Shown in pieces: positions 1 through 64,000 of a stretch of DNA of 64,000 nt (position 1 is its first letter; every line of letters begins with the position of its first letter). Source of the stretch: Rhynchopus sp. YZ270_cl-10 (Eukaryota); assembly GCA_964035575.1 (NCBI GenBank), contig OZ037839.1, positions 992,001-1,056,000 of the forward strand. The letters are read 5' to 3'. Under the pieces are notes generated by a model that was not told the DNA's origin, did no database searches, and saw only the letters and a program-made list of their open reading frames with translations. The position numbers and the translations under genes were made by a program.

Positions 1-1850
1 CCGTCTACACAACTCTGCAACAACGAAGATGCACGGTCCTTGGAGAGAGCACCCGCGGTACTATGTTCAATGTATGAATCAAAGGGCTGAGGTTGGGGGT
101 TTTTTGTATTTTTACTTTTTGGAGTGGGGTACACGTTACCAGTCTGTCTTTTCGTGGATAAAGTTTTCTTCAGTCGTCTCATGAAATGAAGGAGGAAATA
201 CAAACAAAGCATTTTGAACAGACTTTGCGGTTCTGGGGACGAACCGCGCTGCAGAGCCACTCCTCACCAAACAGGTGTGCGTTTCACCACAAACCTTGGG
301 GTTTTTGTGTGATGAGTGTTAAGTTTCTATTTCCCCCTTTTTTTTGATAAATAGTTAGAACAGCACTGCCACCTGTGCAAGATGCACTTTATAGAGCGAG
401 TCTAGATATCTTTCTTTCTACCCTTCTCCCTGCAGGTCCGTGCACACCTTCCTGCAACAGAGTCCATCGGGCTTTCTGCGGAGCTTCGCAACAAAACTGG
501 GGGACAGGTATGGCACGATCCAGGAGCGCAAATAATATATGTTGCTTTTTGTTTCAAATATCAGGCCCCCGGCAATAAGAAGCAGACAACCACGTACGGT
601 GCACCTCCCCTTTTGCAGTTTAGAAGTTTACAGTCACTACATTCACTATTTCAGTGGGGGGAAAAGAAGAGCGGTAAAGCTTTTCATCAGCACTATCTGG
701 CTTTGTGTACAGCCACCATTGTCTCCTGCACGCAGGAGGGTTTTTGCACTTTACACTTCTGTTTTTCCTCCTTTCCCCCTCCCCTCCCACAACCTGCTCC
801 CTTGCTACAGGCGGTGCAGAGCAGTGTCTTTGATCATTGGGCGTTGTACCCGGGTGACCCGCTTGCTCTTGAGACACCGGCAGCGGACATGGTACGTCAG
901 ATACGCGTGCGCAATGGCCTTCCAGAGACACTGGAAAGCTTCCACGACGCACGAACATGTGTGCTGTAGAGAGGGGGTGCACACAAGCCTTGCTGTTGGT
1001 CGTTGGGGTGGGGGTGGTTGCAGGCGTTCGGGTCCACTACTGCTCTGTATGGTGAGTTGCTGAGGCGAGCAGTGTCACTTCCATCGGGTAATTGTCTTTA
1101 TGGCGTCGAGTGGACAGTGCTTGACTTGCCTGGGTTGGAAGGGGTGGTGCCTGTTGGACATTGGTTGCTTTCGCACTGCAGCGTGTTGACACGACCGGAC
1201 GTATCTACGTGGTACGGTGTCAGAGGTTGGGAAAGGCTTCCTCAAGCTGCATCGCGTTGGAAATAATTGAATAGAATTGTCACTGTTTTGGCGGTGTTGG
1301 TGATATGCGGGAGTGGTGTCCTTCGTGCACAGGGTTGACGTCCCTCTATTGCCATCACTTCGCAGTGCCAGACGTATTGATAGCTGGTTCCTTTCGCACT
1401 GCACGACTAGCTTTGGAGACAACAGCCTCTCGGGCACACCGCTGACGCACCCTGGAAGCGAACAACAAACAATCTTAGTTTTTCTCCTCCCACTTTGCAG
1501 TCTTTTTAGCAAACAAAAATTAAAGAGTCTCTCGAGCATGTTGTCCCCCCATTTTGTTGTATCTTGCCTCCCTCCTCCTCCTTCTCAACACTCACCCCAC
1601 AACAGAGCAACACTTCACTCGAAACAATGGAACTGTGTGTGCAGGGATATGATGAAAACAAATTCGTGATAAAGGGTTAAAGAGGAGCCAAGTGCTCCGT
1701 GAGATTAGAGATTTGTGGAAAAATGAAGAATTGTTAGAAAACTCTGCCAAGTGGGTTCGTAGTGGGCAATGGAGAGGACAGAGATAGAGGGTGTGTGGAG
1801 TGGAGTGCATCCTCGGGTGTCTGCACACACAAAAAGGAACTAATAGAGGA

Positions 1851-1912: not shown

Positions 1913-1920
1913 TATCTATT

Positions 1921-10021: not shown

Positions 10022-10057
<36 letters not shown>

Positions 10058-12230: not shown

Positions 12231-13440
12231 CGTCTAATTTTATGCGTAGGGCCTGTGACAGTGATGCTGTGTCCGCAACTCTCCTTATCCCCGCCGCCGG
12301 CAGGTATCGCAGCAACCCCTCTATGGTTTTGTGTCTGGACACCTTTTGTATTTCCTCCAACGGCATTCCTTCCTTCAGGAGCTGGTAGCACGCTCCTCGC
12401 CTCAACGAGTGCGGGGTGAGGGTGGGGTTCACTTTCTTTAGTGCGGTATTGATGTGTTGGAACGTCACGTCTTTGAAGATGAGTGTGTCTCGTGACCTCT
12501 TCGCCGTCTTGAGGAGCTTCTTTAGGGTGAGAAAGGAGGAGTGTTCGATGTTCAGACCTGTCTGTTGGCCGATACGGAAAGGATCGGATTTCGTGGTTAC
12601 CCAGTTCACGCTGGTGACTCCGTCCTCTCGGGTCACCACCTCCTCCGCACGCAGCCGCAGCACATCCGATGCCCTTGCCGCACCCAGCCAGCACATGCTG
12701 ATTGCCAGCTTCAGCACGGGGGAGGGAGTCTGGCGGAGTGTCTCCTCTACCTCCTCTGGGCATGCCGGTACTGCCTGCTGTTTCGGCTTCAACGCCCCCA
12801 ATCTCTTCAATGCCCCCCGGTAATCCTCCAACAGCATTGAGAATGCCATTTTGTGGTAGGCCATTCGTTGCAATGCGGAGACGATGTCGTAGGAGTACTG
12901 GAGGGCGCTGCTGTTGGCGATGCAGTCCATCTCTCGCAAGCGCTAGACCCACAGCACAATGGCCAGATCCATCTCCAGGGGGTTTCCGGTGCAGGCCTCC
13001 CACTTCTGCTTGAACTCCAGAAACCTCCGGAACAGGTACAACAGGTTCTGCCATCTGTCTCTCGAGAGGGATTTCTTCAGGGTGTCCTTCACGCAGGACA
13101 TCAGTGCGGCTCTTTGGGGTTGGGACAAAATTGGTTCGACTTTCAGTGGGCGGCCTCGTTTTTTCGGTTTGGGGTTCAAAAGGTTTGGAAAGAGTGTGTG
13201 TAGGGGGAAAAACAGAAAGAGGGGTGGTTTGAGTTGACTCGAGGGGGTGGAGTCAGTTCCCCCCCTTTCCCGCCTTATCGTTCTTGGGCCCCTCACGGTT
13301 TGCATCACGGTTGGAGTCGCGGTTGTATTCGCGGTTTGTGTCTCTCTGGCGGTCCCGGTCTTCTCTGTATCCACCCCTGTCTCGCGAGTCCCATCCTTTC
13401 CCCTTTTTGCCTCCGGAAGACTTTGAGGCGCGGTGGGCAT
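12226..13440 (-). pseudogene. Tyrosine recombinase interrupted by an in-frame TAG at 12943-12945
   Basis: ORFs 12943..13440 and 12226..12939 are in the same frame; catalytic set R(ASDV)...HSLRRG...SRH...LRY; 5' boundary uncertain. Confidence 0.85.
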
Positions 13441-14329
13441 CGTCGCGGGTTTTCCTCTTTTTGTCGAAAGCCTCTTTCCCCTTTGCCTTCATTTCTTCGA
13501 GGAGTCGCTTCATGATGTGTGGTTCAAATTTTTCGACCTTTTGCGCCTTCGCCTTCACCTCGTACTCGAATCTCACTTCCTTTCCGTAGACTCCCAGGTG
13601 AATGAGAGAAGTGAGCTCCACAACGGTGGTATGGAGAAGTTTAATAGTGGGTGGATGAGAGGTCTTGTCATCAGTCAGTGTGTCTATCGTCAAGAGTAGG
13701 CTGTCGATTTTCCGTGCTCGATCGATCTCGTAATCTGGGGCATCACTTAACTCTGCAGGTATCGTCGCCGTTTTAAAATGGGCGCGTACCGCATCCTTAA
13801 CCAGCAGTCTCATCTTCTTATCCTCCAACTTTGTCCATGTGCACACCACGTCGGCTGCAAAGTTTAGAGGGAGGGTTAGGTCGATTCGTTGTTCCAGAGC
13901 GTCTATCCTGGCTGACATCTCGTCCAGCTTGTACATGATTGCTTGGAAAGAGTGTTGCGAGGTGGTGTCTGTGTCTGTAACGGCGTTGTTTCCTGCATTG
14001 GTCTCCTCCTCGGACGATGCGTCGTCAGGGTCAATTTCCTGTGTGGGTGGGGTGGGGGTGACGTGTTTCTTCCAACAACACTCCGGGCATCGGAATGTGT
14101 CGGCGGTGAAGTTATCTAACACCACCTGCCTGATATGTGCCGGTACGCACTTCTTCAGGCAGGTCACCGACGACGCCTTTCCACAATCGCGGCATCGTGC
14201 CCCCGCATGTTGCTGCGTGCAGGTGCCAAAGCTGCATCCTGGGACATCGTCTGCGCGGGGGTCGTCCGCCTCCACCGACAAAGGGATCGCGTCCCAGTCC
14301 ACCGCGTCAATGCCGGGGTAGTCGGACAT
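13253..14329 (-). CDS. Gag-like ORF1 with an N-terminal PHD-like Cys cluster and a coiled coil
   Basis: 358 aa, ATG start; CSFGTC..CRDC..C..C..FRCPEC; heptad KLDEMSARIDALEQRI; basic C-terminus; first ORF of the element. Confidence 0.75.
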   Translation of the reverse strand: MSDYPGIDAVDWDAIPLSVEADDPRADDVPGCSFGTCTQQHAGARCRDCGKASSVTCLKKCVPAHIRQVVLDNFTADTFRCPECCWKKHVTPTPPTQEIDPDDASSEEETNAGNNAVTDTDTTSQHSFQAIMYKLDEMSARIDALEQRIDLTLPLNFAADVVCTWTKLEDKKMRLLVKDAVRAHFKTATIPAELSDAPDYEIDRARKIDSLLLTIDTLTDDKTSHPPTIKLLHTTVVELTSLIHLGVYGKEVRFEYEVKAKAQKVEKFEPHIMKRLLEEMKAKGKEAFDKKRKTRDDAHRASKSSGGKKGKGWDSRDRGGYREDRDRQRDTNREYNRDSNRDANREGPKNDKAGKGGN

Positions 14330-14479
14330 TAGGAGGTAGGATAGGTGCGAGGTTAGATTTTTTTTTTTTTTTTTTTTTTTGTTGATAGGTTTCGTTCAAT
14401 CTTCGATTCTAGCTCTCAGGCCGGTATTTTTGTTGATAATAGGTTTCGTTCAAGGCTCGACGGTCGGATTCGTTGATAG

Positions 14480-15353
14480 CAGTGGTCGCGCTAATTATGG
14501 GAAAAAATGGGGAAAAAATGGATTTCGGGTACGGAAAAACGTTCCTTGAAAAGGTTAGCTGGGGAGGCCCGGAAACCCCGTTTTGTGGCATTTCCGGGCC
14601 AATCCCGGCTTGTGGTGGGGTATATACGGAAAAATGGACAAAATTTTAGTGACTTAAATTTTCGCAAAATATGAACCCATACTCGTAAACAAGGGTCATT
14701 TTCAGGAAAATTCGGAAAATTCCGAGATTTGGAAGCAATATTTCTCCTGAAAATCAGTGGGTTTTCAGCCCGAAAACATACCGCGATTGGAATTTCCGGA
14801 ATCCGTCCGCGCTGTGGTGGGGTCACTTTGCCGAAATGGCCAATTTTTTGGTTTTGGTCAAAATCCATGTGGGTAAAGAGGGCCAATGTAAATCCCACAA
14901 CCAGATTTTCTCTCCCTGATCCTGACGTCTTGCAACATGAAAATGCGCGAAAACACCGGCATTTGCATTTCCGGAATTCGTCCGTTCTGTGGTGGGGTCA
15001 ATTTGCCGAAATGGACAAGTTCTTGGTTTTGGTCAAAACCCGTCAGTGTAAGGTAAAGGGGGCAAGTGTTTGCCTGTAGAAACTGGAAGGGAACAGGCAG
15101 CGCCGCAGGCGCACGGTAACCAACTTTTTTCTTTTTTTCCTTTTCTTTTTTCTCCTCTTTCTTTTGACTTTCCGAGCCAATTGCGTTCCACGGCGGGGTC
15201 ACATGTATATGCAAGTCCACTATGTGGTGGTCTTACTCAACAATATTAGAACTTCTGGTTTCTTAATGAAATCCCCGTACTGCAAAAAAAAAACGTTCCT
15301 ACCAAAACCCCCAAAAATCCCGGGATGAGGGATGGACTTTAGCGCGAGCTCTG
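14480..15353. mobile_element. hAT-like MITE nested in the YR element 5' region
   Basis: TIR CAGTGGTCGCGCTAA / TTAGCGCGAGCTCTG; 8-bp TSD GTTGATAG (14472-14479, 15354-15361). Confidence 0.8.
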
Positions 15354-15402
15354 GTTGATAGGTTCGTTTTTTTTTTTTTTTTTTTTTTTCTTCTTCTTCG
15401 AC

Positions 15403-16009
15403 CAGCGGATAAGTTAGCTTTTTTATTTTTCGCCAAATCCCGGTTTTTCCGGTTTTTTCCGGTTTTTCCCACCCACACAAAAATAATGATGAAAAGTCAC
15501 AAAAAAATGCCAGCGACCCCAAAATTCTACCAGGTCTAAACCCACCAGCTCTTTGAACGACTTTTTCTGACTTCCATAGCCAGTGTTTGTGCGGCACAAA
15601 GATCCGCCAGGGGGAGGTAACTGAGGCGTCGCTCTTCGCCAATAAACGCGTTAATATACTCCTCACAGCTGTGATATAAAATCGAACATTTTCACAGCCA
15701 AACTATGGCATGGTAGGGCTACTGCTCATAAATTTTGGCTGCGCCACAGGCGCAGCCACGGTACGCTACTTTTTTATGATCGCCGATCCCTTATTCTTGC
15801 TCGATATGAGGAGGTTGGGCTGCTGGGGGGGGGGGGGGGGGGGGGGTGGGTGGGAACCGGACTTCCTTCAGGTCCGGTCCAGGTCTGGTCCAAAAAAAAT
15901 TTTTTTTCAAAAATCCCGAATCTCAATTTTTTTTTTTTTTTTTGAAAAAACCGGAAACCGGGAAAACCCGGTTTTCAAAACCGGAAAACCGGGTCAAACT
16001 TAACCCCTG
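15403..16009. mobile_element. hAT-like MITE nested in the YR element terminal repeat
   Basis: TIR CAGCGGATAAGTT / AACTTAACCCCTG; 8-bp TSD TCTTCGAC (15395-15402, 16010-16017). Confidence 0.8.
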
Positions 16010-16749
16010 TCTTCGACTTGATTTACGATATGGTTGTGTTTGCCTGAAGTACAGAAAGTGTCGTGGAGCACAGGGGGGAAAAGAGGGGGAAACAAGCGGG
16101 GAGCGGGATACGCAGACGCGCGACTTTTCACGAGGGTCTCGAGCATTTTGTCAAATACTACGTGTTTACTAAAAATGCTCGAGAGACTCGTTCCTCTTTG
16201 CTTGTTGCTCAAAAGACTATAAACGGGGGGGAATATCTATCTTTATTGAAATAAAAGAGGGGGTGGTGTGCTTTTTGTTTCAGTGATGATTGGGAGCATT
16301 GGGTGGGCGTCTGCGCCCGCATCTTCAGGACGAAGGGAAATTGAAAGAAGGACACAGCAGTGCATACTGCGACCCCACCACTGCCGCCCCTGCCGCCGCC
16401 CTGCAGTTGTAAGAACAGTACTCCCTACTCACAGTCTCCTTCTTGACAGCAAAGACAAGTCTGCTCTGCCGTAGCTTTGGCACAACTTTTTGGGTTTTAG
16501 CGCCAGGCTTTTTAGCACCAGCTTTGATAGCAGCCATGTTAAGCTTCTCAGCTGTGTTGTTTGGTAGAGGTAGCCAAGGGGTATCTGCTTTTTTCATTGT
16601 ATGCGCTACACAGTGATTACAGTGCCGCAGTTGGAACATGTAATAGAAAGTGCATTTTTCTGTTGGTTCACTTTTCCCCCCCCTCCCCCAAAGTTAGCAT
16701 TAGGCCTGGATACAACCCACCCGCAGAGATACATCAAGAGACACATAAA

Positions 16750-18126
16750 ATGGAGCTGACTATTCAGGGATTGGGGAAGGACTTCGTGATTGAGGTGGGT
16801 GAGAACGACACAACGGAGACCATGCGGGAGAAGGTGGCGACTGCAACAGGGTTGTGCGAAGACAGCTTCCGCATGGGCTTCGGAGGGAAGGAGGAAGGAG
16901 AGGACATCACAGAACTGAGTGCTGGAGACACAGTCGTGTTGACGAAGTCGACGAAGTACGAAGCCATATCAGCTCTTCATGCATTGGGTGAGACAAACAT
17001 CACAGCAGAAAGGTTGCAGCAGGTGGAGGATCCGAAGGTGGCCAGCTTGCTTCTTCAGGCAGAAGTTGCGACTGAGATTCCATACGGCTTCTTCTCACGT
17101 AGTGACGTAACGCGCATTGGTTTCAGTTGCGTACCCAATGTGGATGACAACTGTGGCATCACACTGCACCTGCCTGCATTACCCTGCGTCACCACGATTG
17201 ATGAAAGGTTTCTCTCCAACTGCACAACGTTGTCGAAAGTGGACTTCACCGGCCTGCAATCAGTCACCACGATTGGTGACAATTTTCTCTCCTACTGCAC
17301 AACGTTGTCGAAAGTGGACTTCACCGGCCTGCAAGCAGTCACCACGATTGGTGGCGGGTTTCTCTCCAACTGCACATCGTTGTCGAAAGTGGACTTCACC
17401 GGCCTGCAAGCAGTCACCACGATTGGTGGCGGGTTTCTCTCCAACTGCACATCGTTGTCGAAATTGGACTTCACCGGCCTACAAGCAGTCACCACGATTG
17501 GTTACAGTTTTCTCTCAGAGTGCACAACGTTGTCGGAAGTGGACTTCACCGGCCTGCAAGCAGTCACCACGATTGGTCACGGGTTTCTCTCCTCCTGCAC
17601 ATCGTTGTCGAAATTGGACTTCACCGGACTACAAGCAGTCACCACGATTGGTGACAGTTTTCTCTCAGAGTGCACAACGTTGTCGGAAGTGGACTTCACC
17701 GGCCTGCAAGCAGTCACCACGATTGGTCACGGGTTTCTCTCCTCCTGCACATCGTTGTCGAAATTGGACTTCACCGGACTACAAGCAGTCACCACGATTG
17801 GTGACAGTTTTCTCTACAACTGCACAACGTTGTCGGAAGTGGACTTCACCGGCCTGCAAGCAGTCACCACGATTGGTGACAATTTTCTCTCCTACTGCAC
17901 AACGTTGTCGGAAGTGGACTTCACCGGCCTACAAGCAGTCACCACGATTGGTGACAGTTTTCTCTCAGACTGCACAACGTTGTCGGAAGTGGACTTCACC
18001 GGCCTGCAAGCAGTCACCACGATTGGTGATTATTTTCTCTCCTACTGCAAAATGTTGTCGAAAGTCGACGGAATGGACAAGTGTAGCAACGTTGTACACA
18101 GCAGACTAGGTGACGTTGGTTTTTAG
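16750..18126 (+). CDS. Ubiquitin-like domain + BspA-type (LRR_5-like) leucine-rich-repeat protein, intact, 458 aa
   Basis: ATG at 16750 (MELTIQGLGKDFVIEVGENDT..., Ubl-like); about 12 near-identical 24-aa/72-bp repeats CTTLSxVDFTGLQAVTTIGxxFLS. Confidence 0.85.
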   Translation: MELTIQGLGKDFVIEVGENDTTETMREKVATATGLCEDSFRMGFGGKEEGEDITELSAGDTVVLTKSTKYEAISALHALGETNITAERLQQVEDPKVASLLLQAEVATEIPYGFFSRSDVTRIGFSCVPNVDDNCGITLHLPALPCVTTIDERFLSNCTTLSKVDFTGLQSVTTIGDNFLSYCTTLSKVDFTGLQAVTTIGGGFLSNCTSLSKVDFTGLQAVTTIGGGFLSNCTSLSKLDFTGLQAVTTIGYSFLSECTTLSEVDFTGLQAVTTIGHGFLSSCTSLSKLDFTGLQAVTTIGDSFLSECTTLSEVDFTGLQAVTTIGHGFLSSCTSLSKLDFTGLQAVTTIGDSFLYNCTTLSEVDFTGLQAVTTIGDNFLSYCTTLSEVDFTGLQAVTTIGDSFLSDCTTLSEVDFTGLQAVTTIGDYFLSYCKMLSKVDGMDKCSNVVHSRLGDVGF

Positions 18127-18596
18127 GGGCAGTAAAGAAAGCGGGAGTGGGAATTGGGGTGTTAGGATTATTCTGTGTGTTTGGGCGGGTGGAGTAGTGT
18201 TTTGTTGAGTGAGCAAGAAATCATCCCCACTGTACCACCCACCTTCATTGGACACTTCTTTGGGGTCGGATCAAGGGCACAGTTCCTCTTGTGCTCTCTG
18301 TGTGTCCTTCACTTCACTTCACATTCCGCTTGCATGCTTCACACCATTCCACTTTGCTATTTCCATATTTTTCACTCCATCCCACACAAAACATCCATTT
18401 CTTTTACCCCTCCGCCAGGTTACACATATGTTCCGCACTTTCGACAGTGTTCTTTCACTTGCCAACACTTCCTTGAGGATACACGAGGGCCTTACCTGTG
18501 TGCGCAGCTAGGTATAATCATCTCTGAGGCTGTGCTATACTGCAGGGTCCTAGGTATAGGGAACGGAAAAGGTGCGGCACCTTTTCCGTTAAATTT

Positions 18597-18632
<36 letters not shown>

Positions 18633-19486
18633 GGGGATTTTTTTTTTGGGTCCCCCCAAAGAAAAAAATCCCAGTAACGGGGGTCCCTCCTACACTCAGC
18701 TCACAACAGAATTTTTTGCTACCCAAAATCTCAATTTCCCATACAAAAATGCTCGCATTCAGAAGGAAAGCGCTCGCGAAACCCGAGGGGGCTCAAGGGC
18801 ACACCGTGGGAGAACTCGACTCAATTGTCAAACGCCGAAGGAAAAGGAAGCATGCAGCGAAGCGAAAGCAAAAAAGTAGCGTACCGTGCGCCTGCGGCGC
18901 AGGATTGCAACTCACCCTTTCCCATGACATAGTTTGTCAGTAAAAATGTGCAATTTTAAGTGATTTTATTGACGTGCAATTATAGACTCTTCACAAAATC
19001 CTTCTACAGGCGTGCAATTTGAAATCCACAATTTAACGGCCAGGGTAGAATTAAGTACCATGCGTGTAATTATAGATCCTGTTACAAATGCACGTAAAAT
19101 GTGGCCGTTTAATTAATGATCTATAATTACACGCCTCCCAAATGCGTGTAATTATTTTTCTGTACAAAATGGGTGGGAAATGTGTGCGTTTAATTAAGTA
19201 TTTATAATTACACGCCTCCCTCAGACAACACATTTTTTTGAGTGCAGACCCTAAGTTCCCCAAGCGGGTCCTTAGGCGAGTGCACAACTGAGACTGAGGC
19301 ATCTCTGCGTGCGATGATCCCGTAAATATACTGGAAGTGTGAACCTCAGAACGAACAGAAATGCCCCCCAGAAGAAGACCACGTCGTTGACTTCCTGACC
19401 AGCATGCGGTCTGATGGGATGAAGGGCCGTGGACTATCTGGAGTCTTCTTACCTCCACCCTCCACTTCAACTCCACCAGCACTACA

Positions 19487-19717
19487 ATGGTGGGTGAGAA
19501 CGACACAACGGAGACGATGCGGCAGAAGGTGGCGTCTGCAACAGGGTTGTGCGAAGACAGCTTCCGCATGGGCTTCGGAGGGAAGGAGGAAGGAGAGGAC
19601 ATCACAGAACTGAGTGCTGGAGACACAGTCGTGTTGGCGAAAACTACTAAGTACGCATCTGTTGAGGAACTTCGTGCCTTGGGTGAGACAGACATTTCCG
19701 AAGCGAGGTTGGCGACT
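19487..19717 (+). pseudogene. 5' half of a Ubl-LRR paralogue split by retroelement insertions
   Basis: MVGENDTTETMRQKVASATGLCEDSF...ETDISEARLAT is highly similar to the 16750 gene; joins in frame to 27842 if 19718-27841 is removed. Confidence 0.85.
19699..19717 (+). repeat. 19-bp target-site duplication CGAAGCGAGGTTGGCGACT (copy 1; also 20444-20462, 27823-27841 and 63512-63530 on minus)
   Basis: Exact 19-mer flanks each insert. Confidence 0.95.
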
Positions 19718-19837
19718 GGATTCGGCCATACTCTGGTGAATACACCTCATCCCGCCTGATTTGAGAAGTTAAGCACCAGCAGGCCTGGATAGTACTGGCG
19801 TGGGTGACCAGCTGGGAAGTCCGGGTGCTTGAATCCT
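19718..19837 (+). rRNA. Full-length 5S rRNA sequence (120 nt), forming the head of a retroposed unit
   Basis: GGATTCGGCCATAC...GAAGTTAAGC...TAGTACT...GGGTGACC...GGGAA...GGTGCTTGAATCC; termini GGATTC/GAATCC pair (helix I); box A and box C-like motifs; resembles euglenozoan 5S. Confidence 0.93.
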
Positions 19838-20443
19838 TAAAACCCGACGGCGGACCGCCCCCCATAGCACATTTTTGCGGTGCACGGGCGTACGGGATTA
19901 GTATCTTTTTTTGAGAGAACCCAAGAGCGGCCAGGTCCTGGACAAGTACGTTGTGCTTTTAGACCTACAAACTGTCTGGGGTGGTGGGACCTCGGGGCGA
20001 AGGGTGCTTCCCGGGACCCCAATATCCTACCACAAGGAGCTCGAGTCGTGCATGGAAAGCAGGGTACTCTGAGCCGATTACTTCCACAACTCCCAGATCC
20101 CAAGACCTCCACGGGGGGCAGGCCTCCACGGAAACCCGCGACCGCCGACACCTTAGCTCCGTACTGCCTCTGTCTGTAACCTGCCGGTCCCCCACCTACC
20201 TACGCTTTTTGTGGTGTCTTTTTACGACGGTGGACCAAGGGGCTTTGCAGTGCAGTCAACGCCGACGGAGCGAGACTCGATTGTGACCGGGTGAAAAGGG
20301 AACCTTAGCCAGCGCTAACCAGCGGCAGTTTTGACTCAGGGAGGAGTTTCTCACCGCAGACTGGCGACACACCCCCACTTTTTCGGGGTGGCTGCATTCC
20401 TCTTCGGAACGGGGTGTTCCATCCTATTTTTAAAAACGTTTAG
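19718..20443 (+). mobile_element. 5S-headed non-autonomous retroposon (SINE3-like or 5S template-switch chimera)
   Basis: Bounded by the 19-bp TSD; last 59 nt (20385-20443) are 55/59 identical to the LINE 3' end (27764-27822). Confidence 0.85.
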
Positions 20444-20462
20444 CGAAGCGAGGTTGGCGACT

Positions 20463-20529
20463 GGGGTTTTTACCGAGCACCTCCACGAGGTGACCCCGGG
20501 CAACGCAGAGGACTGCGGCAAAGACTCGG
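20463..20529 (+). ncRNA. HDV-like self-cleaving ribozyme at the exact LINE 5' end
   Basis: P1 GGGGTT/GACCCC, P2 CCGAG/CTCGG, P3 ACC/GGT, L3 TCCACGA with P1.1 CC/GG, P4 GCAG-AGGA-CTGC, J4/2 GGCAAA with candidate catalytic C; folded by eye. Confidence 0.8.
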
Positions 20530-22022
20530 AAGAAGAAGAAGAAGAAAACGACGAAGAAAAAAGACAGATTTTTGTGCGAACGCTTACTGGAAAGACAGTG
20601 ACAGTGGACGTCAGCGACGCGGACTCGGTGGCTGACCTGAAGGCGGCAGTGCGAGCGAAGACAGGTGGACGCAGAGACGTGCAACGCCTTACCATCAACG
20701 GAAGGGACATGAGCGACAAGGAGTCGCTCCGGATGTGCAGGACGCACTGCAACGTGTGGGAGCTGGGTAGGCTAAGGGGAGGAAGCAGCGGCGACACCCC
20801 GGAGGCTATGGACGACACCCCCCCATTCACACTCGAGATACCCGACAGCAAGGCAACGAACTCCGCCGCCCGGGTATACGACCTCAGACCTGTCCCACCC
20901 CAGGCAACCAGAGCGGACTGCGTCACCGCATTGAAGGCGATGCAGTGGGAGGGGGCGCGGGTGGTGACGCTGCTCAACAAGGGCAGAACGGGGGAGAAGA
21001 CCCTCGTGGTGCGTGCGGAGTCCCAGCCCCCACACCGCAGCATCAAGTGGCAAAACGTTGTGGTGTCAATCTTCCCCGCAGAAGCAAAGGATACTAGTAC
21101 CACCACCACCACCAACCACAACCACGCCCCCAAGAGAGTCCCCGACCCCACGGTGAGGAACCGCAAGGATAAGTATACCATTGCAGAGTTCAGGCAGGAG
21201 TACGGGGCAGCCAGAGGCAAACTTCTCTTCGAGGAAGGCACACAGCTGGAGCTGGCATGGCTGCAGCGCAAGGAGCAAAGATCCCATCACCAACAGACCT
21301 TCACCACACCTCAGAACCTCGACCCGCTGCTCTCGGTGGTGCAGCAGAACGCGGCCGCGCTGACACAGCTATCACGCACAGGCCAGGAGACCACGGCTGC
21401 CCTTCTGCACATGGGCAGGGGAGTCGAGGCCATGAGCATCGGGGTGGAAGGGATGGGCAAGGGCATCGAAGCCCTGCTGGAACGACAGGCGTCGCAGCAC
21501 GCCGAAACGACGGCCGTGCTACACGGCATGGATGGGCGTCTGCAGAGCATCGAGGCTCGGCAGATCTCGACGGAGGAGTGCCTGCAGCACATCCTGAGGG
21601 TGGTATCCGCCAACACCAGCACCAACACCAACGCCAACGCCACCACCGCCTCACAGCCCAGCTCCCCACGACCCCCATCACCACTCCCTGACGCAGAGTC
21701 GCTGAAGACTCCGCCGCAGGCACCCACGCCGTCTCCCGCGGAGACAAACAAGGGGGCAAAGACCCCACTTGCAAAGGGAAGGCGGGAAAGGGGAAAGGGG
21801 GAACCACCGCCCCGCCATCCGCGGCCGCCTCCCTCGACGACATCTTCTCCGCGTCGCCGCTGGCGGGGAAGAAGGGAAAGGGAAAGGGAAAGGGAAAAGA
21901 CGACCCAGGGAAAAGCCAAGGACAAGCGAACCTGCTCGACTTCAACCTCGATCTCTGAACTCTCCTTCCCCTATCCCCTGGAAATCAACTCCCGACCCCC
22001 TCTTAGAATTAGAACAAACTAG
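20463..22022 (+). CDS. LINE ORF1: acidic leader, ubiquitin domain (20562-20783), coiled-coil and Pro-rich regions; no ATG before the ubiquitin domain
   Basis: RQIFVRTLTGKTVTVDV...DVQRL...LGRLRGG vs ubiquitin MQIFVKTLTGKTITLEV...DQQRL...LRLRGG; heptads around MGRGVEAMSIGVEGMGKGIEAL. Confidence 0.85.
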   Translation, partial: GVFTEHLHEVTPGNAEDCGKDSEEEEEENDEEKRQIFVRTLTGKTVTVDVSDADSVADLKAAVRAKTGGRRDVQRLTINGRDMSDKESLRMCRTHCNVWELGRLRGGSSGDTPEAMDDTPPFTLEIPDSKATNSAARVYDLRPVPPQATRADCVTALKAMQWEGARVVTLLNKGRTGEKTLVVRAESQPPHRSIKWQNVVVSIFPAEAKDTSTTTTTNHNHAPKRVPDPTVRNRKDKYTIAEFRQEYGAARGKLLFEEGTQLELAWLQRKEQRSHHQQTFTTPQNLDPLLSVVQQNAAALTQLSRTGQETTAALLHMGRGVEAMSIGVEGMGKGIEALLERQASQHAETTAVLHGMDGRLQSIEARQISTEECLQHILRVVSANTSTNTNANATTASQPSSPRPPSPLPDAESLKTPPQAPTPSPAETNKGAKTPLAKGRRERGKGEPPPRHPRPPPSTTSSPRRRWRGRREREREREKTTQGKAKDKRTCSTSTSISELSFPYPLEINSRPPLRIRTN

Positions 22023-25000
22023 AAACTGGCTGGACGCAAAGGCAGACCCCACTAGATTAGATACGTACTTAGAATCGCACGTAGAACCGGGGATAGGTAG
22101 GAGCGCCTACCCCAAAAACAACGACAATCCCGTGAACCCACTGAGGGCCATCACCGACCACAAGGAGTGGTTGGACGCAACAGCCCGCAGTATCAACTCT
22201 ACAAGGATAGCAGTAGCGCCAGACGGGGACTGCCTATTCACTGCCATAGCTGAGCAGAGCGAGGGGTGGACAACGAACTCACTGCGACAACGGGTGGTGG
22301 ACGTACTGCAAAACGACGACAGTGACCTCTATGCTGACAGCTACTCTCCTGAGGCAAACGAACCTCCCACCTACACGCAACACCTAGCCAAAATGAGAAT
22401 GCAAGGAACGTACGGTGGAGAACGTGAGCTACAGACTGCGGCAAGCATACTCGACAGGGCCATCTGGGTACTGGATGCCAGAGCGAAACGGTTTAGCCAC
22501 GTCGGCGGACCACCTACATCGAACCCAGTTGTGCTCACGTACAGGCCCGAGCACTTCGACCGCCTCAAAGCAACCGAGGGGCTGCTGTCGCTGATTGCAA
22601 CGACGCAGGCAGAAGGCAACCGCTGTGTCACGCTGGAGAACCTGGACACGAATATCGCAGTGTCTCGCTCACGGAAACGTACCAAGACGGAGAGAAAGCG
22701 ACGCCGCGCTGCCCGGGCCACTCCAAACCTGTCCATACGTACTGCCAACATCACCTCAATGAATGCTCACCAGGAGGAGGTGTGGAGTTGGGACAACGAC
22801 ATAGTCGCACTGCAGGAGACTCGGCTCACACAGAAGAAACAGGCCCAAGCTTCCCGAACGCTGTATGAACAAGGCTGGACAGGTCTCTGGGGGTGCCCAG
22901 TAAAGTTACTTCCAAATGCAATACAACAGAGCTACGGAGAGCACAAGGGGGTGGGCCTAATGGTGAAACGAGGCATACCAGCAAGTGTGGTCAGGAGAGA
23001 TACTGAACGAGCAAAGAGACTCTGGGACTCAAAGCGTTACCTGCACGCAAAGGTGGCACATGGGGCAGGGAACCATTTTCTACACCTATTCGTGATATAC
23101 GCCAAAGTCGGCAACTCCCCGCAAGCAAAGCAAGAGCGCGAGAGCTTCCTATCGGATGTATTTGCAGAAGCAGAGATAGGGGACGTACCAGCGATTATCC
23201 TCGGGGATTGCAACAGCCACCCAGAACCCAGCTCAAGCGAAGCAATATCCCTAGCCATCAGCTCAGAACGATGGACGGACTGTGCCGAACGAGCCGCGGG
23301 CTGGGCCAACCAAGAGCCAGAGCACACCCACATCGGTAAGAGCACAAAGTCTGAAGCCAAAAGTGTGTGCTCACGAATTGACATCATACTGGCCAACCAA
23401 ATCGCGGTGCTTGCGCTGGCAGGGTGCAAAACGGGGACGGCCGGAATACCTTCACACATCCCCCTGGACGCGACATTTAAAAATATGACGTACCGGCAGC
23501 GTGTGCTCAAGCAGGAAAGGCCCCCTATGCTACAACAGGATGAACTGAGCAGGAAGAAAACGAAGGCAGACCTTGAAAAGGAGGCTGAAGAGATCTGCGA
23601 TGGTTCCAAAGCACAATGGCACGCAAGCACATTGGTAGAGGACAAGTGGAAAGCATGGAATGAGGATGCGACCAACTTCTGGGCACGGCAGGGAGACGAC
23701 AACTCAGCAGCATGTTTTCGCAAAGGCCGACCACCCAAACTGCGACGCACCTGGCTGTGCAGCAGACAGTCTCGCGAAGGCGACGCAGGAGAGACCCTCA
23801 AGATGACGCGCATCCGGAAGACGATCCGCAGACTAACTGAGGTCGGCAACACTCTACGCACCAAAGGAGCCCTCACACCCAGCGCACGCAAGGCGTGGGA
23901 CAAAGCGAAGGCAGGGCTGGTGAGCATTCTCGACGCTACCCCAGAGGAGGAGCCGCAGGCCAGCACGACACTGGAGCTGATACAGCGCCTGCACCAGAGA
24001 CTCGAAACTGCCAGAAAGAACCTGGAGAGGGACAGGGCCACGCAAAGGTACCGCATGATACGCACGCAATGGCACACCACACCAGGGCTCATCTACAAGC
24101 GCCTCAACGGAGCCAAAATGCGGTGCAACACGATGAAGCGCGGGACGGAAGAGACCGCGAATGTGGAGGACATGGACACGTGGTTGCGTGAGGCATGGCT
24201 TCCCATACTTCAAAAGCACAACACCCTGAGTGACACACCCACGTGGGAAGCGTTCGAGGAAAGGTTTGGCACACACATACCTCAACGGCCGATGCACGTA
24301 GAACCCCTAACCGGAAGGATGCTGAAAGCCGTGGCCGAGAGCATGCCGAAGGGGAAGGCCCCCAGCACAGACGGATGGCACCCAGAAGAACTTGCGCTTC
24401 TCCCAACGGGGATCTTCGACAGGCTGGCATCAATCCTCAACCAAGTAGAAGAGACGGGCGTATGGCCAGAAGCTCTCCTCCACGCGACCGTGAGCATGAT
24501 CGCCAAGGTGGAGGACCCACAACCACTCGACCACCGACCAATTTCCGTGATGTCGGCGGTATATCGGCTATGGGCAAAGACAAGGTTGACGAGCCTAATG
24601 GTGTGGCAAGAGACATGGGCACCGGAATCCATGCACGGCTTCAGGACTGGGCACGGAACACGTGACGCTTTTTACCTCACCGCACTCCTGGTCGAAAAAG
24701 CAATGGTGTCGGGGAACACGCTGCGAGGAGTATTTCTGGACATTAAGAAATGCTTCGACACCATACCGTGGGACATAACCTTCAGTCTTGTGGAGAAAAT
24801 GGGGATCGACATGAAGATCACGCGGCCCCTCAAGAGCATGTACAGGGACCTGAAGAGGCGGTTCAAACTGTACGGTACGGTCGGTGAGGAGTTCAAAGCG
24901 AACAATGGCATTCTGCAGGGATGTGCGCTGAGCATTATCCTGCTGAACGCCCTCCTAGCAGTGTGGGAGGCGGCGGTTCGGACGGAAACCAGATGTCGGA

Positions 25001-27393
25001 CAAGCCTGTACGCGGACGACACCACCATGACCTCGAACAACACCGCACAATTGAGGAAAGGCCTCACAGTGTCCCACGACTTCGCCACCAAGACCGACCT
25101 CACGTACGGAAGTAGTTTCTCCTTCTCGACAGCCAAGACCGAAAAGCTGGAGCTCATGCTCGGAGACACCCAGCTGAGACAGGAGAAGAAGGAACTGGAC
25201 AATCTCGGCGCAGTGATCAGACTGGCCGTAGCCAAGAAAAAGGAAGCAGCGACAAAGCTGGACAAGCGAGTGCGCAAAGCTGAGACATGTGCGCGACGTA
25301 TCCCTCACCTCAACGTCCCCTTTGAAGGCAGAGCCGAACTGGTGGCGACAAAAATAATGCCCATGGCACTCTACGGCTGCGAGACGTACGAGCCGCTGTC
25401 CACCACCGCTGGAAGGCTCACCAAAGCAGTGACGGCGGCGATTTGGAGGGGCCTACCTAGCAGATGCAGTGAAATAGTGAGGGGAGTGCTGAACCCGCTA
25501 CACCGGACAGACCCAACATCTTACCTCAAGTACCAACGCCTGCTCGCGCTCTACACCATGGGGAAGAACCAGGAGATTAGAACCCTAATAGACGAGATCC
25601 GTATCCTGAAGCGGACGTCGAGAGTAAAATTCTGTGGACCGGTAGACATCCTCCTCCGCACCACCCAATCCATGAACTGGCGCTGGGAGAACAACACCCT
25701 ATTGCCCCCGCACACAACACAGATGAACCTCGACGAACCCGAGGGTGACCTTCTTCGACACCAACTCCGAGACGGTATCAGGGACGATTTCTGCCGTAGA
25801 CTCGAGACAAGGAGGGAGGACATGCAAGGGGTTAAAGATGGCATCGATTATCGCACGATCAACGCCGTGTGGAACAGCTACAAGAACACAGATCCACTGC
25901 GTGCAGGGTACATGAGGAACATTCTTGCAGGAGCGGAGCTCACACAGGACAGGCGCAAAAGAATGAAGATGAGCACCAGTGACACGTGCGAGCACTGCGG
26001 CACAGGTGTGGAGGACTTTGAACACATGTGGGAACAATGCAGCCACACCGCACACATACGCGAACAGCACAAATACGCAAGAGTGTCCGATCCAGCAGTA
26101 AGAGAAAGCTGGCCGAAATGCCTGCGCCTCAACGCCATTCTCCCCGCCGGCTTCCAGATGATTCCGGAAGTGCCGAACAGAGAAGCCCTAGAGCTGCTGC
26201 TTCTCATGTACTCAGACATCGCCCTAGAGAGGGAGGACAAGAGAAAACGCGGTACCACTACAACGAAGACGAGCCAAATGGACAATTTTCCCTGGACATG
26301 GGAACCAGAAGGCCCATACGAGACCTACATAGGAGTACTTCCTGACGAGGTGCCAGACGCGTGGCCGTACAAAGCGGAAGGATACCTCGCACTCAAGGAG
26401 TGGCTGGAAAGCCTAAAGTGGCCGACGGTGTCCAATGGGAAATCACAGCACGTCTCGCACCTGGAGCTGGCGCTGGACTTCGAAGCGCACACAGGAGCAA
26501 AGCTCACCACAGAGGAACCCAATTCCCGAGAGAGCTCCATGATCACCGACAAAATCACCTGGTTCAGCAACTGGATGGCTAAGGCAAAGATAGTGGCAGC
26601 AAACGCGTACCTCTTCTCGGGCACCATCTACCCCAAGAGCAAAGTGTTCGCCCCATTAGACCTAGGCATCAAGTGGGGAACCCTAGCGATCACGAGACGA
26701 CCCATCCTCACCGAACCAGCTGAGGTGCTCAAGACGATCCGGTCCCTGCCAACCCTCTGCAAAGGGAACAAATCCTGGACGAACACAGAGCTCCCACCCC
26801 TAGAAGAGGACTGCAAACAGGAGAGAGCAGACAGAATTGCGAAGCACATCCGCTTGGCTGCTGAGCAGAAGCAGCAGAAGCAGGCTCGACGAAAACCAAA
26901 GAAACCCACCGGACACACTCGCATCTTCTTCGGCGGATACTGCAACGTGAGGCAGCCGGGGGCGAGGGTGAAGAAAAACACTTGCCAGGGATCGGGCGCA
27001 GGTGCACGCCTCGAGATAGATGGCGAGGTGCGGTGGACAGCCAGCAGTCGCCTGGCGGACACAACCCTGAACGTCGCGGAGTATGAAGGACTGCTGATGT
27101 GCCTCGAATACCTGAAGAGCGACACAGACACCACACCACTGAACATCTACGGATCCAGTAGAACCGTGGTTGACCAGGTGAACGAGCACTGCAGACCATA
27201 CGCGGCAGTCGCCCACCTCCAGAAAGAGGCGCGGGGTGAGCTTGACAAGCTGAGAGCGACCCGAAGCATCACGTTGGTGCACATCGACAGCAGTAACAAC
27301 GTGAACGCCACAAAGCTCGCCTGCACGGCCGTTGAGAAGCTTAGTGTGGGCGAGACAACGAAAGAGGACAAGCTAGGACAGCACCCTCTGTAG
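21769..27393 (+). CDS. LINE ORF2: OTU protease - AP endonuclease - reverse transcriptase - CCHC knuckle - RNase H-like
   Basis: OTU DGDCLF..YGGERE..HF; APE TANIT, LQET, GDCN, RIDI, SH; RT KAPSTDG, RPIS, LDIKKCFD, QG, YADD; CEHC..EH..C; C-terminal NVAEYEGL. Confidence 0.95.
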   Translation: MQREGGKGERGNHRPAIRGRLPRRHLLRVAAGGEEGKGKGKGKRRPREKPRTSEPARLQPRSLNSPSPIPWKSTPDPLLELEQTRNWLDAKADPTRLDTYLESHVEPGIGRSAYPKNNDNPVNPLRAITDHKEWLDATARSINSTRIAVAPDGDCLFTAIAEQSEGWTTNSLRQRVVDVLQNDDSDLYADSYSPEANEPPTYTQHLAKMRMQGTYGGERELQTAASILDRAIWVLDARAKRFSHVGGPPTSNPVVLTYRPEHFDRLKATEGLLSLIATTQAEGNRCVTLENLDTNIAVSRSRKRTKTERKRRRAARATPNLSIRTANITSMNAHQEEVWSWDNDIVALQETRLTQKKQAQASRTLYEQGWTGLWGCPVKLLPNAIQQSYGEHKGVGLMVKRGIPASVVRRDTERAKRLWDSKRYLHAKVAHGAGNHFLHLFVIYAKVGNSPQAKQERESFLSDVFAEAEIGDVPAIILGDCNSHPEPSSSEAISLAISSERWTDCAERAAGWANQEPEHTHIGKSTKSEAKSVCSRIDIILANQIAVLALAGCKTGTAGIPSHIPLDATFKNMTYRQRVLKQERPPMLQQDELSRKKTKADLEKEAEEICDGSKAQWHASTLVEDKWKAWNEDATNFWARQGDDNSAACFRKGRPPKLRRTWLCSRQSREGDAGETLKMTRIRKTIRRLTEVGNTLRTKGALTPSARKAWDKAKAGLVSILDATPEEEPQASTTLELIQRLHQRLETARKNLERDRATQRYRMIRTQWHTTPGLIYKRLNGAKMRCNTMKRGTEETANVEDMDTWLREAWLPILQKHNTLSDTPTWEAFEERFGTHIPQRPMHVEPLTGRMLKAVAESMPKGKAPSTDGWHPEELALLPTGIFDRLASILNQVEETGVWPEALLHATVSMIAKVEDPQPLDHRPISVMSAVYRLWAKTRLTSLMVWQETWAPESMHGFRTGHGTRDAFYLTALLVEKAMVSGNTLRGVFLDIKKCFDTIPWDITFSLVEKMGIDMKITRPLKSMYRDLKRRFKLYGTVGEEFKANNGILQGCALSIILLNALLAVWEAAVRTETRCRTSLYADDTTMTSNNTAQLRKGLTVSHDFATKTDLTYGSSFSFSTAKTEKLELMLGDTQLRQEKKELDNLGAVIRLAVAKKKEAATKLDKRVRKAETCARRIPHLNVPFEGRAELVATKIMPMALYGCETYEPLSTTAGRLTKAVTAAIWRGLPSRCSEIVRGVLNPLHRTDPTSYLKYQRLLALYTMGKNQEIRTLIDEIRILKRTSRVKFCGPVDILLRTTQSMNWRWENNTLLPPHTTQMNLDEPEGDLLRHQLRDGIRDDFCRRLETRREDMQGVKDGIDYRTINAVWNSYKNTDPLRAGYMRNILAGAELTQDRRKRMKMSTSDTCEHCGTGVEDFEHMWEQCSHTAHIREQHKYARVSDPAVRESWPKCLRLNAILPAGFQMIPEVPNREALELLLLMYSDIALEREDKRKRGTTTTKTSQMDNFPWTWEPEGPYETYIGVLPDEVPDAWPYKAEGYLALKEWLESLKWPTVSNGKSQHVSHLELALDFEAHTGAKLTTEEPNSRESSMITDKITWFSNWMAKAKIVAANAYLFSGTIYPKSKVFAPLDLGIKWGTLAITRRPILTEPAEVLKTIRSLPTLCKGNKSWTNTELPPLEEDCKQERADRIAKHIRLAAEQKQQKQARRKPKKPTGHTRIFFGGYCNVRQPGARVKKNTCQGSGAGARLEIDGEVRWTASSRLADTTLNVAEYEGLLMCLEYLKSDTDTTPLNIYGSSRTVVDQVNEHCRPYAAVAHLQKEARGELDKLRATRSITLVHIDSSNNVNATKLACTAVEKLSVGETTKEDKLGQHPL

Positions 27394-27841
27394 ATATTTT
27401 ACCTTGTTCTTCTTGTTTTTCATGCATTTCAATCTTCCTCAACGACATTCTTGTTTTTCATTGTTTTTCAGTTGACACAGCGACGCATAAGTCCATTTGG
27501 CACTGTTGTTGAACCCCAAGTTCAAACCGGACGGCTATCCCAGCGTAGATGGCAGCAGACGTGTACGCCACGCCTGAAACCGGTAATTTTAATATTCATT
27601 GCTTTTCTTTACAAGTTGACACAAGATTCTAGATTTTAAGTTGGTTCAACGTCGCATGAGACCAGTTGGCGCAGTCGTTGAACCCTCAATTTTTCATTTT
27701 TTTCTGGTTTTGGCCCGTGAAACCCTGTGTTACATCAACGCTGGGTTCGCGAGCCTGAAGCCAGGGGTGGCTGCATTCCTTTTCGGACCGGGGTGCTCCA
27801 TCCTATTTTTAAAAACGTTTATCGAAGCGAGGTTGGCGACT

Positions 27842-29053
27842 GTGAGGGATCCTGAGGTGGCTTCTCTGCTTCTTCAGGCGGAGGTTGCGACTGTTATTCC
27901 AGGCTTCTTCTTGTCGCAAGCATCATTTACGAGACTTGATCTCTCTGCTGTGTCTGGTGTGACACGAATTGAGGACGGCTTCCTCTCTGGGTGTGCGTCG
28001 GTGGAAACTGTTGACTTGTCGGGATTGTGCAACGTTACGCACATTGGGCATGACTGTCTCTCTGGCTGCACATCGTTGACAAGCCTTGACGTGTCAGGGT
28101 TCACTGGTGTGACGGTGATTGGGGAGTCGTTCCTAGGAGGAAGTGGCGTCACAAATCTTGACTTATCCGAGATGACGAGTGTGACGAAAGTTGGTACATA
28201 CTTTCTTGCCTACTGCAAGTCGCTGAAAAGTCTAGACATCTCAGGATGGCGCAGAATCACACACATTGAGGACGGCTTCCTCCATAACTGCACCTCGTTG
28301 GCAACCATTGATTTGTCAGCTTTTTGCAGTGTCACGAAGATCGGATCCAAGCTTTTCTTCAACTGCTCGTCGTTGACCACCATCAGCTTTTCAGGGATGA
28401 CAAATGTGACGGAAATTTGGAACGAGTTTTGTGCGTACTGCACCTCGTTAGAAACGATTGACTTGACAGCACTGCACAGAGTTGTGAAGGTGGGTAACTG
28501 CTTTCTCTGGGGCTGCACTTCGCTGAGAAGTATCGACCTTTCAGCTTTTGGCAGAATCGCACACATTGAGGACGGCTGGATGCAAGAGTGCTCCGCGTTG
28601 ACAACAGCAGACTTCTCAGGAATGAGCAATGTTCGGCGGATTGATGCTAATTTCCTGCAAGAGTGCACGTCCTTGACGACGCTGGACATGTCAGGCTTTG
28701 ACAGGGACACAGAGATCCATCACTACTTCCTGGACAACTGCAACGCACTCACAACAGTCGTCTTGCCAGGCAACATCGACATTGACGAGATGTTGTCTCT
28801 CCCGAATGGAGACCCACCCCTCTACGACAAGCGGACCTTACGTGAACGTATGCGTGAGATTTACGAAAGGTTTACGGAACAATTCAGAGGTGTGCGGATA
28901 GAAGCTTTTGAGGCAGTACGAACAGACGTGTCTGGAAGTGCACGGCAATGTATTGCATTGAAAGCAGGACACGAGAGAGAAGGGATTGATGCAAGCACAA
29001 GAGGACGAAAAAGAGGAACAAAAAGAGGATTTGGAGAGTTGGGGGCAGCATAA
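27842..29053 (+). pseudogene. 3' (LRR) half of the split Ubl-LRR gene; frame still open
   Basis: VRDPEVASLLLQAEVAT matches VEDPKVASLLLQAEVAT of the 16750 gene; 24-aa LRRs CTSLxxxDLSxxxxVTxIGxxFL. Confidence 0.85.
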
Positions 29054-57510: not shown

Positions 57511-57569
57511 TGAAGCCGCTGGTTCGCTCTCCCACTTCCATCTCTCTCTGGTCAGTGGTGCCGTAGTTA

Positions 57570-63530: not shown

Positions 63531-64000
63531 ATAAACGTTTTTAAAAATAGGATGGAGCACCCCGGTCCGAAAAGGAATGCAGCCACCCCTGGCTTCAGGC
63601 TCGCGAACCCAGCGTTGATGTAACACAGGGTTTCACGGGCCAAAAACCAGAAAGAAAAATGAAAAATTGAGGGTTCAACGACTGCGCCAACTGGTCTCAT
63701 GCGACGTTGAACCAACTTAAAATCTAGAATCTTGTGTCAACTTGTAAAGAAAAGCAATGAATATTAAAAGTTACCGGTTTCAGGCGTGGTGTACACGTCT
63801 GCTGCCATCTACGCTGGGATAGCAGTCCGGCTTGAACTTGGGGTCCAACAACAGTGCCAAGTGGACTTATGCGTCGCTGTGTCAACTGAAAAACAATGAA
63901 AAACAAGAATGTCGTTGAGGAAGATTGAAATGCATGAAAAAAACAAATGCATGAAAAAAACAAGAAGAACAAGGTAAATCTCTACAGAGGGTGCTGTCCT
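63531..64000 (-). mobile_element. 3' end of a second copy of the Ub/OTU LINE (runs off the window)
   Basis: Reverse complement matches 27375-27822 (ORF2 end GQHPL* and 3' UTR) with a few substitutions and indels. Confidence 0.95.

What the first reader, a model, noticed from the sequence alone, without database searches (positions are those of the whole stretch)
19487..29053. Sequence-specific retrotransposition into a Ubl-LRR protein-coding gene family
Seen: the same 19-mer CGAAGCGAGGTTGGCGACT flanks two tandem inserts (19699, 20444, 27823), and a second LINE copy abuts it in a different paralogue (63512-63530). Removing the inserts restores a 480-codon Ubl-LRR ORF. Known site-specific LINEs mostly target rDNA, SL RNA, snRNA, tRNA or telomeric repeats. 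A multicopy protein-coding target for an APE element is unusual. Two different elements at one site argue for real specificity, although the 63-kb copy could be a post-insertion duplication.
Basis: partly seen in the sequence, partly recalled or inferred. Interest (0 to 1): 0.88.

Follow-up and report, generated by a model that had tools for sequence, protein, structure and literature searches.

The report
Retrotransposon pair targeting one host codon
A retrotransposon and a small 5S-rRNA-headed partner sit at the same codon in several diverged copies of a large protein-coding gene family of a likely diplonemid protist, and the retrotransposon's first protein, which has no AUG ahead of its ubiquitin-like part, is likely made as a fusion with the host gene and would be cut free at a ubiquitin-like tag.

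Summary
Confirmed and extended. The 19-mer is a true target-site duplication. Insert 1 (19718-20443) is a 5S-rRNA-headed SINE sharing a 59-nt 3' hairpin tail with insert 2, a LINE (ORF1 with a ubiquitin-like domain ending RLRGG; ORF2 OTU-APE-RT-zinc finger-degenerate RNase H). The host family has at least 341 protein clusters. Proteins from other contigs show the LINE at the same codon in paralogues only 51-83% identical (6 of 6 readable 5' junctions among 18 listed), with different bases at each junction, which rejects one duplicated insertion. A full tally was impossible: 4 of 10 LINE-bearing contigs were unreadable and 7-11 long-flank contigs per run are unresolved, one not target-like. ORF1 has no AUG before its ubiquitin-like domain and is in frame with the host N-terminus, suggesting expression as a host fusion released by a deubiquitinase (untested, about 45%). 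Verdict: new variant of a known kind, in an apparently undescribed diplonemid LINE lineage.

The parts
1627..1671 (+). 15 codons matching the missing N-terminus of host gene A, 17.8 kb upstream of the rest
   Evidence: tblastn 12 of 15 identical to P0097 residues 1-15; junction read; belonging to gene A is inferred
16750..18126 (+). Uninterrupted Ubl-LRR paralogue B (458 aa) with an empty, diverged site near 17005-17023
19487..19717 (+). Host gene A, 5' half (Ubl domain), ending in target-site copy 1
19699..19717 (+). Target-site duplication copy 1 (19 nt)
19718..20443 (+). Insert 1: 726-nt SINE3-type element; 5S rRNA head 19718-19837, body, LINE-like tail 20385-20443
   Evidence: Rfam RF00001 89.3 bits, model 1-120; tail match and hairpin
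20444..20462 (+). Target-site duplication copy 2
20463..21958 (+). LINE ORF1: acidic leader, ubiquitin-like domain (about 20568-20783, ending RLRGG), no ATG before 20709; frame continuous with the host frame; one base missing after 21775 in this copy or assembly
22000..27393 (+). LINE ORF2: OTU (Cys motif at 22222, His motif at 22549), APE (22744-23460), RT (about 24529-25200), zinc finger (25987), RNase H-like domain (about 26968-27321) with three acidic motif residues replaced
27394..27822 (+). LINE 3' UTR ending in the hairpin tail 27764-27822; no poly(A)
27823..27841 (+). Target-site duplication copy 3
27842..29053 (+). Host gene A, 3' half (BspA-type LRRs)
   Evidence: Pfam LRR_5 114.7 bits
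62375..63530 (-). Paralogue C, target site and 3' half
63531..64000 (-). 3' end of a second LINE copy, cut by the window end
   Evidence: 441 of 447 aligned bases identical to 27375-27822

Best explanation
An APE-type LINE and a 5S-rRNA-headed SINE that shares its 3' hairpin occupy the same codon position in several diverged members of a large Ubl-LRR gene family, likely because the LINE protein cuts that position and copies either RNA into it. Shown: anatomy, duplications, fixed host-side breakpoint 12 nt after the start of the R-L codons, tandem stacking, diverged hosts around near-identical elements. Inferred from LINE biology: target-primed reverse transcription from a bottom-strand nick about 19-22 nt upstream, ORF2p binding the shared hairpin, and each new duplication offering a fresh target (about 85% for repeated targeted insertion; about 60% that most young copies are on target; about 65% that the protein, not RNA pairing, sets the site). 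Further inference (about 45%): the element has no start codon ahead of its ubiquitin-like domain, so ORF1 is translated from the host gene's AUG as host-Ubl/linker/Ubl/ORF1 and released after RLRGG by the element's OTU or a host deubiquitinase. The large family makes loss of single genes tolerable.
For: Duplication and empty sites. Of 18 listed LINE-cluster proteins (15 of 19, and 3 of 3) 6 reach past a 5' end and all 6 join at the same codon: AEKLES, AERLES, PERLEE, AERLVT x3; P0185 adds EARLAT. Frame-independent DNA junctions agree: both loose ends upstream of the LINE start in run X1 are host-like and a truncated SINE joins a further paralogue in X4 (table 5c). 3' junction peptides P0061-P0063 are 3 of 3 host-like. 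Truncated copies share the host breakpoint, which points to the nuclease. Hosts 51-83% identical, AU p=0.00026. Tail hairpin z -2.9 and -2.5, with all 3 internal differences in the loop or G-C to G-U. Fusion: 82 stop-free codons before the first ATG, 3 and 1 stops in the other frames; 3 of 5 variants there synonymous (expected 0.23, p=0.09); P0027, P0030, P0035 are continuous host-ORF1 frames; OTU Asp/Cys/His motifs align with solved OTUs.
Against: No genome-wide tally: 4 of 10 contigs carrying listed ORF2-cluster members had no readable junction, and P0023 and P0034 start inside the element. In one search, 8+3 contigs (X1) and 6+1 (X4) leave the tail into long flanks with mixed consensus (agreement 0.53-0.63); the 8 and 6 are only partly target-like, the 3 are unclear, the single X4 one is not target-like, and 8 rows were not shown. 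Junctions read from proteins favour in-frame, hence same-site, cases. P0021 and P0026 share one truncation and deletion on two contigs, so some copies probably spread by duplication. The 125-row tree test did not reject one clade. In-frame joining is one 1-in-3 draw, not six; P0185 is out of frame by one T; a GTG at codon 10 could start ORF1. The SINE has T5 36 nt after the 5S end and T7 at 19906, awkward for a full-length Pol III transcript. A distant LINE (33%) is fused to a host Ubl at another codon (P0237), so the family also collects other insertions.
Confidence: 0.75

Rival explanations
1. Relaxed, ingi-like preference: the LINE favours a short degenerate motif anywhere in the genome, and the Ubl-LRR family is a hot spot because hundreds of copies conserve the motif and their loss is tolerated.
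For: Site bases vary between paralogues; unresolved long-flank contigs and one non-target flank; precedent RHS; P0237 shows another LINE in the family.
Against: 6 of 10 LINE-bearing contigs on target and none shown off target; exact host breakpoint in all clear young junctions.
Confidence: 0.2
2. The site is chosen mainly by RNA: read-through transcripts carry host sequence that pairs with the nicked target, as read-through 28S sequence helps R2.
For: 3' junction offset varies by about 3 nt; no poly(A); co-transcription with the host is plausible; read-through annealing raises R2Ol efficiency (PMC6530143, passages).
Against: 5'-truncated LINE and SINE copies share the same host breakpoint without upstream homology; the three window duplications match the recipient subfamily.
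Confidence: 0.15
3. One or two ancestral insertions were spread among paralogues by duplication, crossing-over or gene conversion.
For: P0021/P0026 share a truncation; recombination is invoked for RHS pseudogenes; inconclusive; winA and P0026 not separated (p=0.30).
Against: The bases directly beside the element differ between loci on both sides; two ORF1 types, a SINE and truncated copies share the site; tandem stacks; LINE 1.3% against host 7.6% divergence, Fisher p=2e-7 (about 5% at fourfold sites in the clearly collinear parts); AU p=0.00026.
Confidence: 0.05
4. Insert 1 is not a Pol III SINE family but a 5S gene unit or chimera mobilised inside host Pol II transcripts.
For: Intact 5S fold; T5 and T7 runs soon after the 5S end.
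Against: Starts exactly at 5S position 1 with no terminator at the 5S end; shared LINE tail; further copies at the P0016 locus and in X4; body variants in contigs.
Confidence: 0.15

Closest known systems
ingi/RIME (Trypanosoma brucei) in RHS genes
   Same: APE-RT-RNase H LINE plus non-autonomous partner, hot spot in the 5' coding region of a protein-coding multigene family, one or more elements between two gene halves, in Euglenozoa (PMC7563717 and PMC12278014, passages).
   Different: Different host family; two ORFs with Ubl and OTU; no poly(A); partner has a 5S head and shares only the 3' tail; nearest named relatives are diplonemid elements at about 30-34%.
R1- and Tx1-clade target-specific APE elements (R1, SART, TRAS, Keno)
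   Same: APE endonuclease, fixed position in a multicopy target.
   Different: [quoted passage not shown] Clade membership untested.
SINE3 (5S rRNA-derived SINEs)
   Same: 5S head, body, LINE-derived tail, target-site duplication.
   Different: Described from vertebrates and insects with CR1, I or RTE partners (PMC7245038, passages) and Aspergillus (PMC5063351, search listing); here euglenozoan, site-specific, with internal T runs.
NeSL and Utopia-1_TSP (Ulp1 protease-bearing site-specific elements)
   Same: A ubiquitin-family protease at the N-terminus of the RT protein of a target-specific element (PMC4640811, passages).
   Different: They use a restriction-like nuclease, Ulp1 rather than OTU, and target SL or U2 genes; no Ubl-headed ORF1 appears in the passages seen.

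Membership tests
SINE3 | 5' head derived from 5S rRNA | tested here: met
   RF00001 19718-19837, 89.3 bits, starts at insert base 1
SINE3 | 3' tail shared with a partner LINE | tested here: met
   59-nt tail, same hairpin
SINE3 | Non-coding, flanked by target-site duplication, multicopy | tested here: met
   only short chance ORFs; duplications; further copies at P0016 locus and X4 joint; copy number not measured
SINE3 | Full-length transcription by Pol III | not testable with these tools
   no run on record as RNA; T5/T7 runs are a concern
Target-specific APE non-LTR retrotransposon | APE plus RT with catalytic motifs | tested here: met
Target-specific APE non-LTR retrotransposon | Independent copies at one position of a multicopy target | tested here: met
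Target-specific APE non-LTR retrotransposon | Most genomic copies on target | tested here: inconclusive
   6 of 10 contigs on target, 4 unreadable; unresolved flanks
Target-specific APE non-LTR retrotransposon | Endonuclease cleaves the target specifically | not testable with these tools
   needs biochemistry
R1 or Tx1 clade | RT phylogeny inside the clade | not tested
   no clade reference RTs were at hand; solved L1 and R2 proteins are only distant (E 3e-13 or weaker)
Ingi clade | poly(A) tail | tested here: not met
   3 of 3 window 3' ends finish in the same short non-A tail; feature from PMC12278014
Ingi clade | Pr77 signature at the 5' end | not tested
   no reference sequence fetched; the 5' end here is open coding frame
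Ingi clade | RNase H domain | tested here: inconclusive
   RVT_3 hit 25.1 bits but FGG/GSS/NAT where relatives P0363, P0368 have FDG/GDS/DAD

The most novel reading that the evidence does not exclude
A LINE that has given up its own start codon and lives as an in-frame C-terminal extension of a host protein family: it cuts one codon boundary, borrows the host gene's transcription, trans-splicing and AUG, and frees ORF1p through its own ubiquitin-like tag and OTU protease, with a site-specific SINE3 riding along.
Probability: 0.4. Interest if true: 0.9.

Novelty: new variant of a known kind. Interest (0 to 1): 0.74.

Why it matters
It gives a second, apparently independent case (after RHS) of an APE retrotransposon aiming at a protein-coding family, here at a degenerate site, so what the nuclease reads can be dissected from natural variants. 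It extends SINE3 to Euglenozoa as a site-specific partner. If the fusion reading holds, it shows how a retrotransposon can be expressed in a polycistronic, trans-splicing genome without promoter or start codon, and gives a testable role to element-encoded ubiquitin-family proteases. It also offers a steady route of pseudogene formation in a large LRR family.

Tried and rejected
No whole genome is held, so flanks were read from predicted proteins and Logan contigs. The shared tail found 0 matches in metagenome contigs. No RNA holder listed. The ESM Atlas gave no result. Earlier findings: none in 3 look-ups. Rescue of the host 3' half from an ATG in the LINE 3' UTR: in frame in window copies A and C but out of frame in P0062 and P0063; rejected as a general feature. 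A canonical-phase slippery heptamer at 21892 lies in a Gly-Lys repeat; only a lead for ORF2 expression. Summed contig depths were not used as copy numbers. The 125-row tree was under-searched; the 24-row set was chosen afterwards (4 inserted, paralogue B, nearest three of each, rest random; P0027 left out as too short). Host-like stretches were sought in 225 related or other-family LINE proteins: 1 hit, at another codon. No structure or complex prediction was run. Literature searches with no paper holding all terms: OTU in non-LTR elements, Ambal clade, in-frame host fusion; searches listed nothing on this element by title or abstract start. Bringaud 2002 is not held and is cited through PMC7563717.

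Full report
Observation. The 19-mer occurs at 19699, 20444 and 27823 on the plus strand and at 63530-63512 on the minus strand; the last three follow the same tail motif. Removing both inserts and two of the three copies gives 480 open codons with a weak ubiquitin-family hit in the 5' half and strong BspA-type LRR hits in the 3' half. An uninterrupted paralogue lies at 16750-18126. The restored frame lacks the family's first 15 codons; a matching piece lies at 1627-1671, so gene A is probably broken a second time, and the window's LINE could not now be read from it.

Insert 1. Its first base is base 1 of a complete 5S rRNA match (RF00001, 89.3 bits, the only Rfam hit in the window). Its last 59 nt match the LINE's 3' end and fold into the same hairpin (z -2.9 and -2.5); the three internal differences fall in the loop or turn G-C into G-U. 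This is SINE3 anatomy. Runs of T5 (19872) and T7 (19906) would by general knowledge stop Pol III, so how the full-length RNA is made is open.

Insert 2. ORF2 holds OTU, APE, RT and zinc-finger domains and an RNase H-like end whose acidic motifs are replaced relative to relatives. The OTU Cys and His motifs align with solved OTU enzymes (best E 1e-4). ORF1 starts at the element's first base as open frame, with a ubiquitin-like domain ending RLRGG; the first ATG (20709) is inside that domain. Three of four laid runs carry an extra G after 21775, which gives the C-terminus seen in P0023 and P0027. Named relatives are from Diplonema papillatum, D. ambulator, D. japonicum, Rhynchopus euleeides and Flectonema neradi at about 30-34% identity, so the host is likely a diplonemid (inference). 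OTU was hit in 6 of 28 long relatives scanned, 3 above Pfam's cut-off.

The target family. The host N-terminus found 341 protein clusters among 737 candidates; the 120 listed are all from ENA, on contigs whose lengths overlap those bearing the LINE. In these the region around the site is conserved as E-R-L-x-x-V-x-D-P with the two x codons before V highly variable, and several carry SEARLAT once.

Is it specific? Among 18 listed members of the two LINE clusters (15 of 19 and 3 of 3), 6 extend past a 5' end; all 6 join after R/K-L-x-x (P0016, P0021, P0026, P0027, P0030, P0035). P0185 does too, out of frame by one T in a run. The three listed proteins that begin in the LINE 3' UTR all run into the host site (P0061-P0063). 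Told apart by length, 10 contigs carry listed ORF2-cluster members: 6 have an on-target junction, 4 have none readable, none is shown off target. Protein evidence favours in-frame cases, but DNA junctions from Logan contigs agree: both loose ends upstream of the LINE start in X1 are host-like and end at the same codon, one loose end after the tail reads as a further paralogue, and a truncated SINE joins yet another paralogue in X4. Against this, 8 and 3 contigs in X1 and 6 and 1 in X4 leave the tail into long flanks; the groups of 8 and 6 have a variant tail and a mixed consensus (agreement about 0.54) containing a target-like stretch at the expected offset, the 3 are unclear, the single one is not target-like, and 8 rows were hidden. 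These may be older or sister families, partly off target.

Independent events? The four interrupted N-termini long enough to compare are 51-83% identical, and gene A's is 96% identical to an uninterrupted gene, while the first 100 ORF1 residues are 94-100% identical across 6 copies. The window's two LINE 3' ends differ at 6 of 447 bases and the host halves at 73 of 956. A careful 24-row tree rejects one clade (p=0.00026); the quick 125-row tree did not (p=0.69). The codons touching the element differ between loci, which crossing-over upstream cannot explain. P0021 and P0026 share a truncation and deletion, so duplication of inserted loci probably also occurs.

Mechanism. By established LINE biology ORF2p binds the 3' hairpin of either RNA, nicks the bottom strand and primes reverse transcription; the top-strand break is fixed 12 nt after the start of the R-L codons, while the 3' junction offset varies by about 3 nt. 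Truncated copies share the fixed break, which favours the nuclease over RNA pairing (inference). Each duplication re-creates a target, which explains the stacks in the window and, from junction peptides, on a 146.5-kb contig (P0016, P0021). For expression, six full-length 5' ends begin at the same base (window, P0016, P0027, P0030, P0035, P0185); 82 codons before the first ATG are stop-free in the host frame only, and 3 of 5 variants there are silent (p=0.09; 4 of 5 at third positions, p=0.045). The Ubl is only 33-41% identical to ubiquitins yet keeps RLRGG. The simplest reading is translation from the host AUG and release by a deubiquitinase; a GTG start or a dispensable Ubl remain possible, and no RNA data were available.

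Comparison. The closest system is ingi/RIME in RHS genes: a hot spot in the 5' coding region of a multigene family, giving pseudogenes with one or more retroelements between two halves (PMC7563717, passages). Target-specific APE elements are otherwise placed in the R1 and Tx1 clades, and NeSL and one Utopia carry a Ulp1 protease (PMC4640811, passages). SINE3 is described from vertebrates and insects (PMC7245038, passages). The D. papillatum genome paper lists retroelement annotations but defers a rigorous analysis (PMC10161547, passages and a search of 7 supplement files). Also seen as passages: PMC12278014, PMC3747384, PMC1874656, PMC6530143. Searches for OTU-bearing non-LTR elements and for in-frame host fusion returned no paper with all terms, within an open-access library only; from recall, OTU domains have been noted in some Repbase non-LTR families, so the domain alone may not be new.

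Verdict. Real, repeated, position-specific insertion into a protein-coding family by a LINE and a SINE3 partner; it works like ingi/RIME in RHS but fails the ingi poly(A) test and is not filed there. New variant of a known kind, interest 0.74; the host-fusion and ubiquitin-release reading has probability about 0.4 and would deserve 0.9.

Noticed in passing
window 1672-19488: A 17.8-kb block separates the first 15 codons of gene A from the rest; it holds paralogue B, an RT-bearing element and many repeats; no duplication or terminal repeat was evident at its ends.
   Followed up: partly
window 10424-14329 (-) and 54479-57694 (-): Two other RT-bearing elements (Pfam RVT_1) that look DIRS/TATE-like by recall; a 63-70 nt repeat near the first recurs at 1850, 10281 and 16171.
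   Followed up: no
window 52550-53756 and 58974-61675: Long arrays of a 9-nt purine-rich unit flank the second RT element; perfect 5-, 7- and 8-nt microsatellites at 41234, 43570 and 33980.
   Followed up: no
P0237: A host Ubl N-terminus fused in frame to a truncated LINE of a different family (33% identical), at a different codon.
   Followed up: partly
P0197 and P0209 clusters: Two more young OTU-APE-RT families (7 and 17 members) on contigs whose lengths match this assembly; their targets are unknown.
   Followed up: partly
window 20396-20406, loose ends: Several other sequences share the same 3' hairpin tail but have different upstream bodies, suggesting more families mobilised by this tail.
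   Followed up: no
window 19815, loose ends: All 4 runs hold a 5S-like sequence that leaves the head at 19815 into a different AT-rich sequence: another 5S-derived repeat.
   Followed up: no
window 20884-21958 against P0016, P0034, P0035: Two ORF1 types share the first 100 residues at 94% but diverge after the RLRGG region, as if the body was swapped behind the ubiquitin tag.
   Followed up: partly
window 48177-49346 (-): An intronless WD40 protein gene.
   Followed up: no
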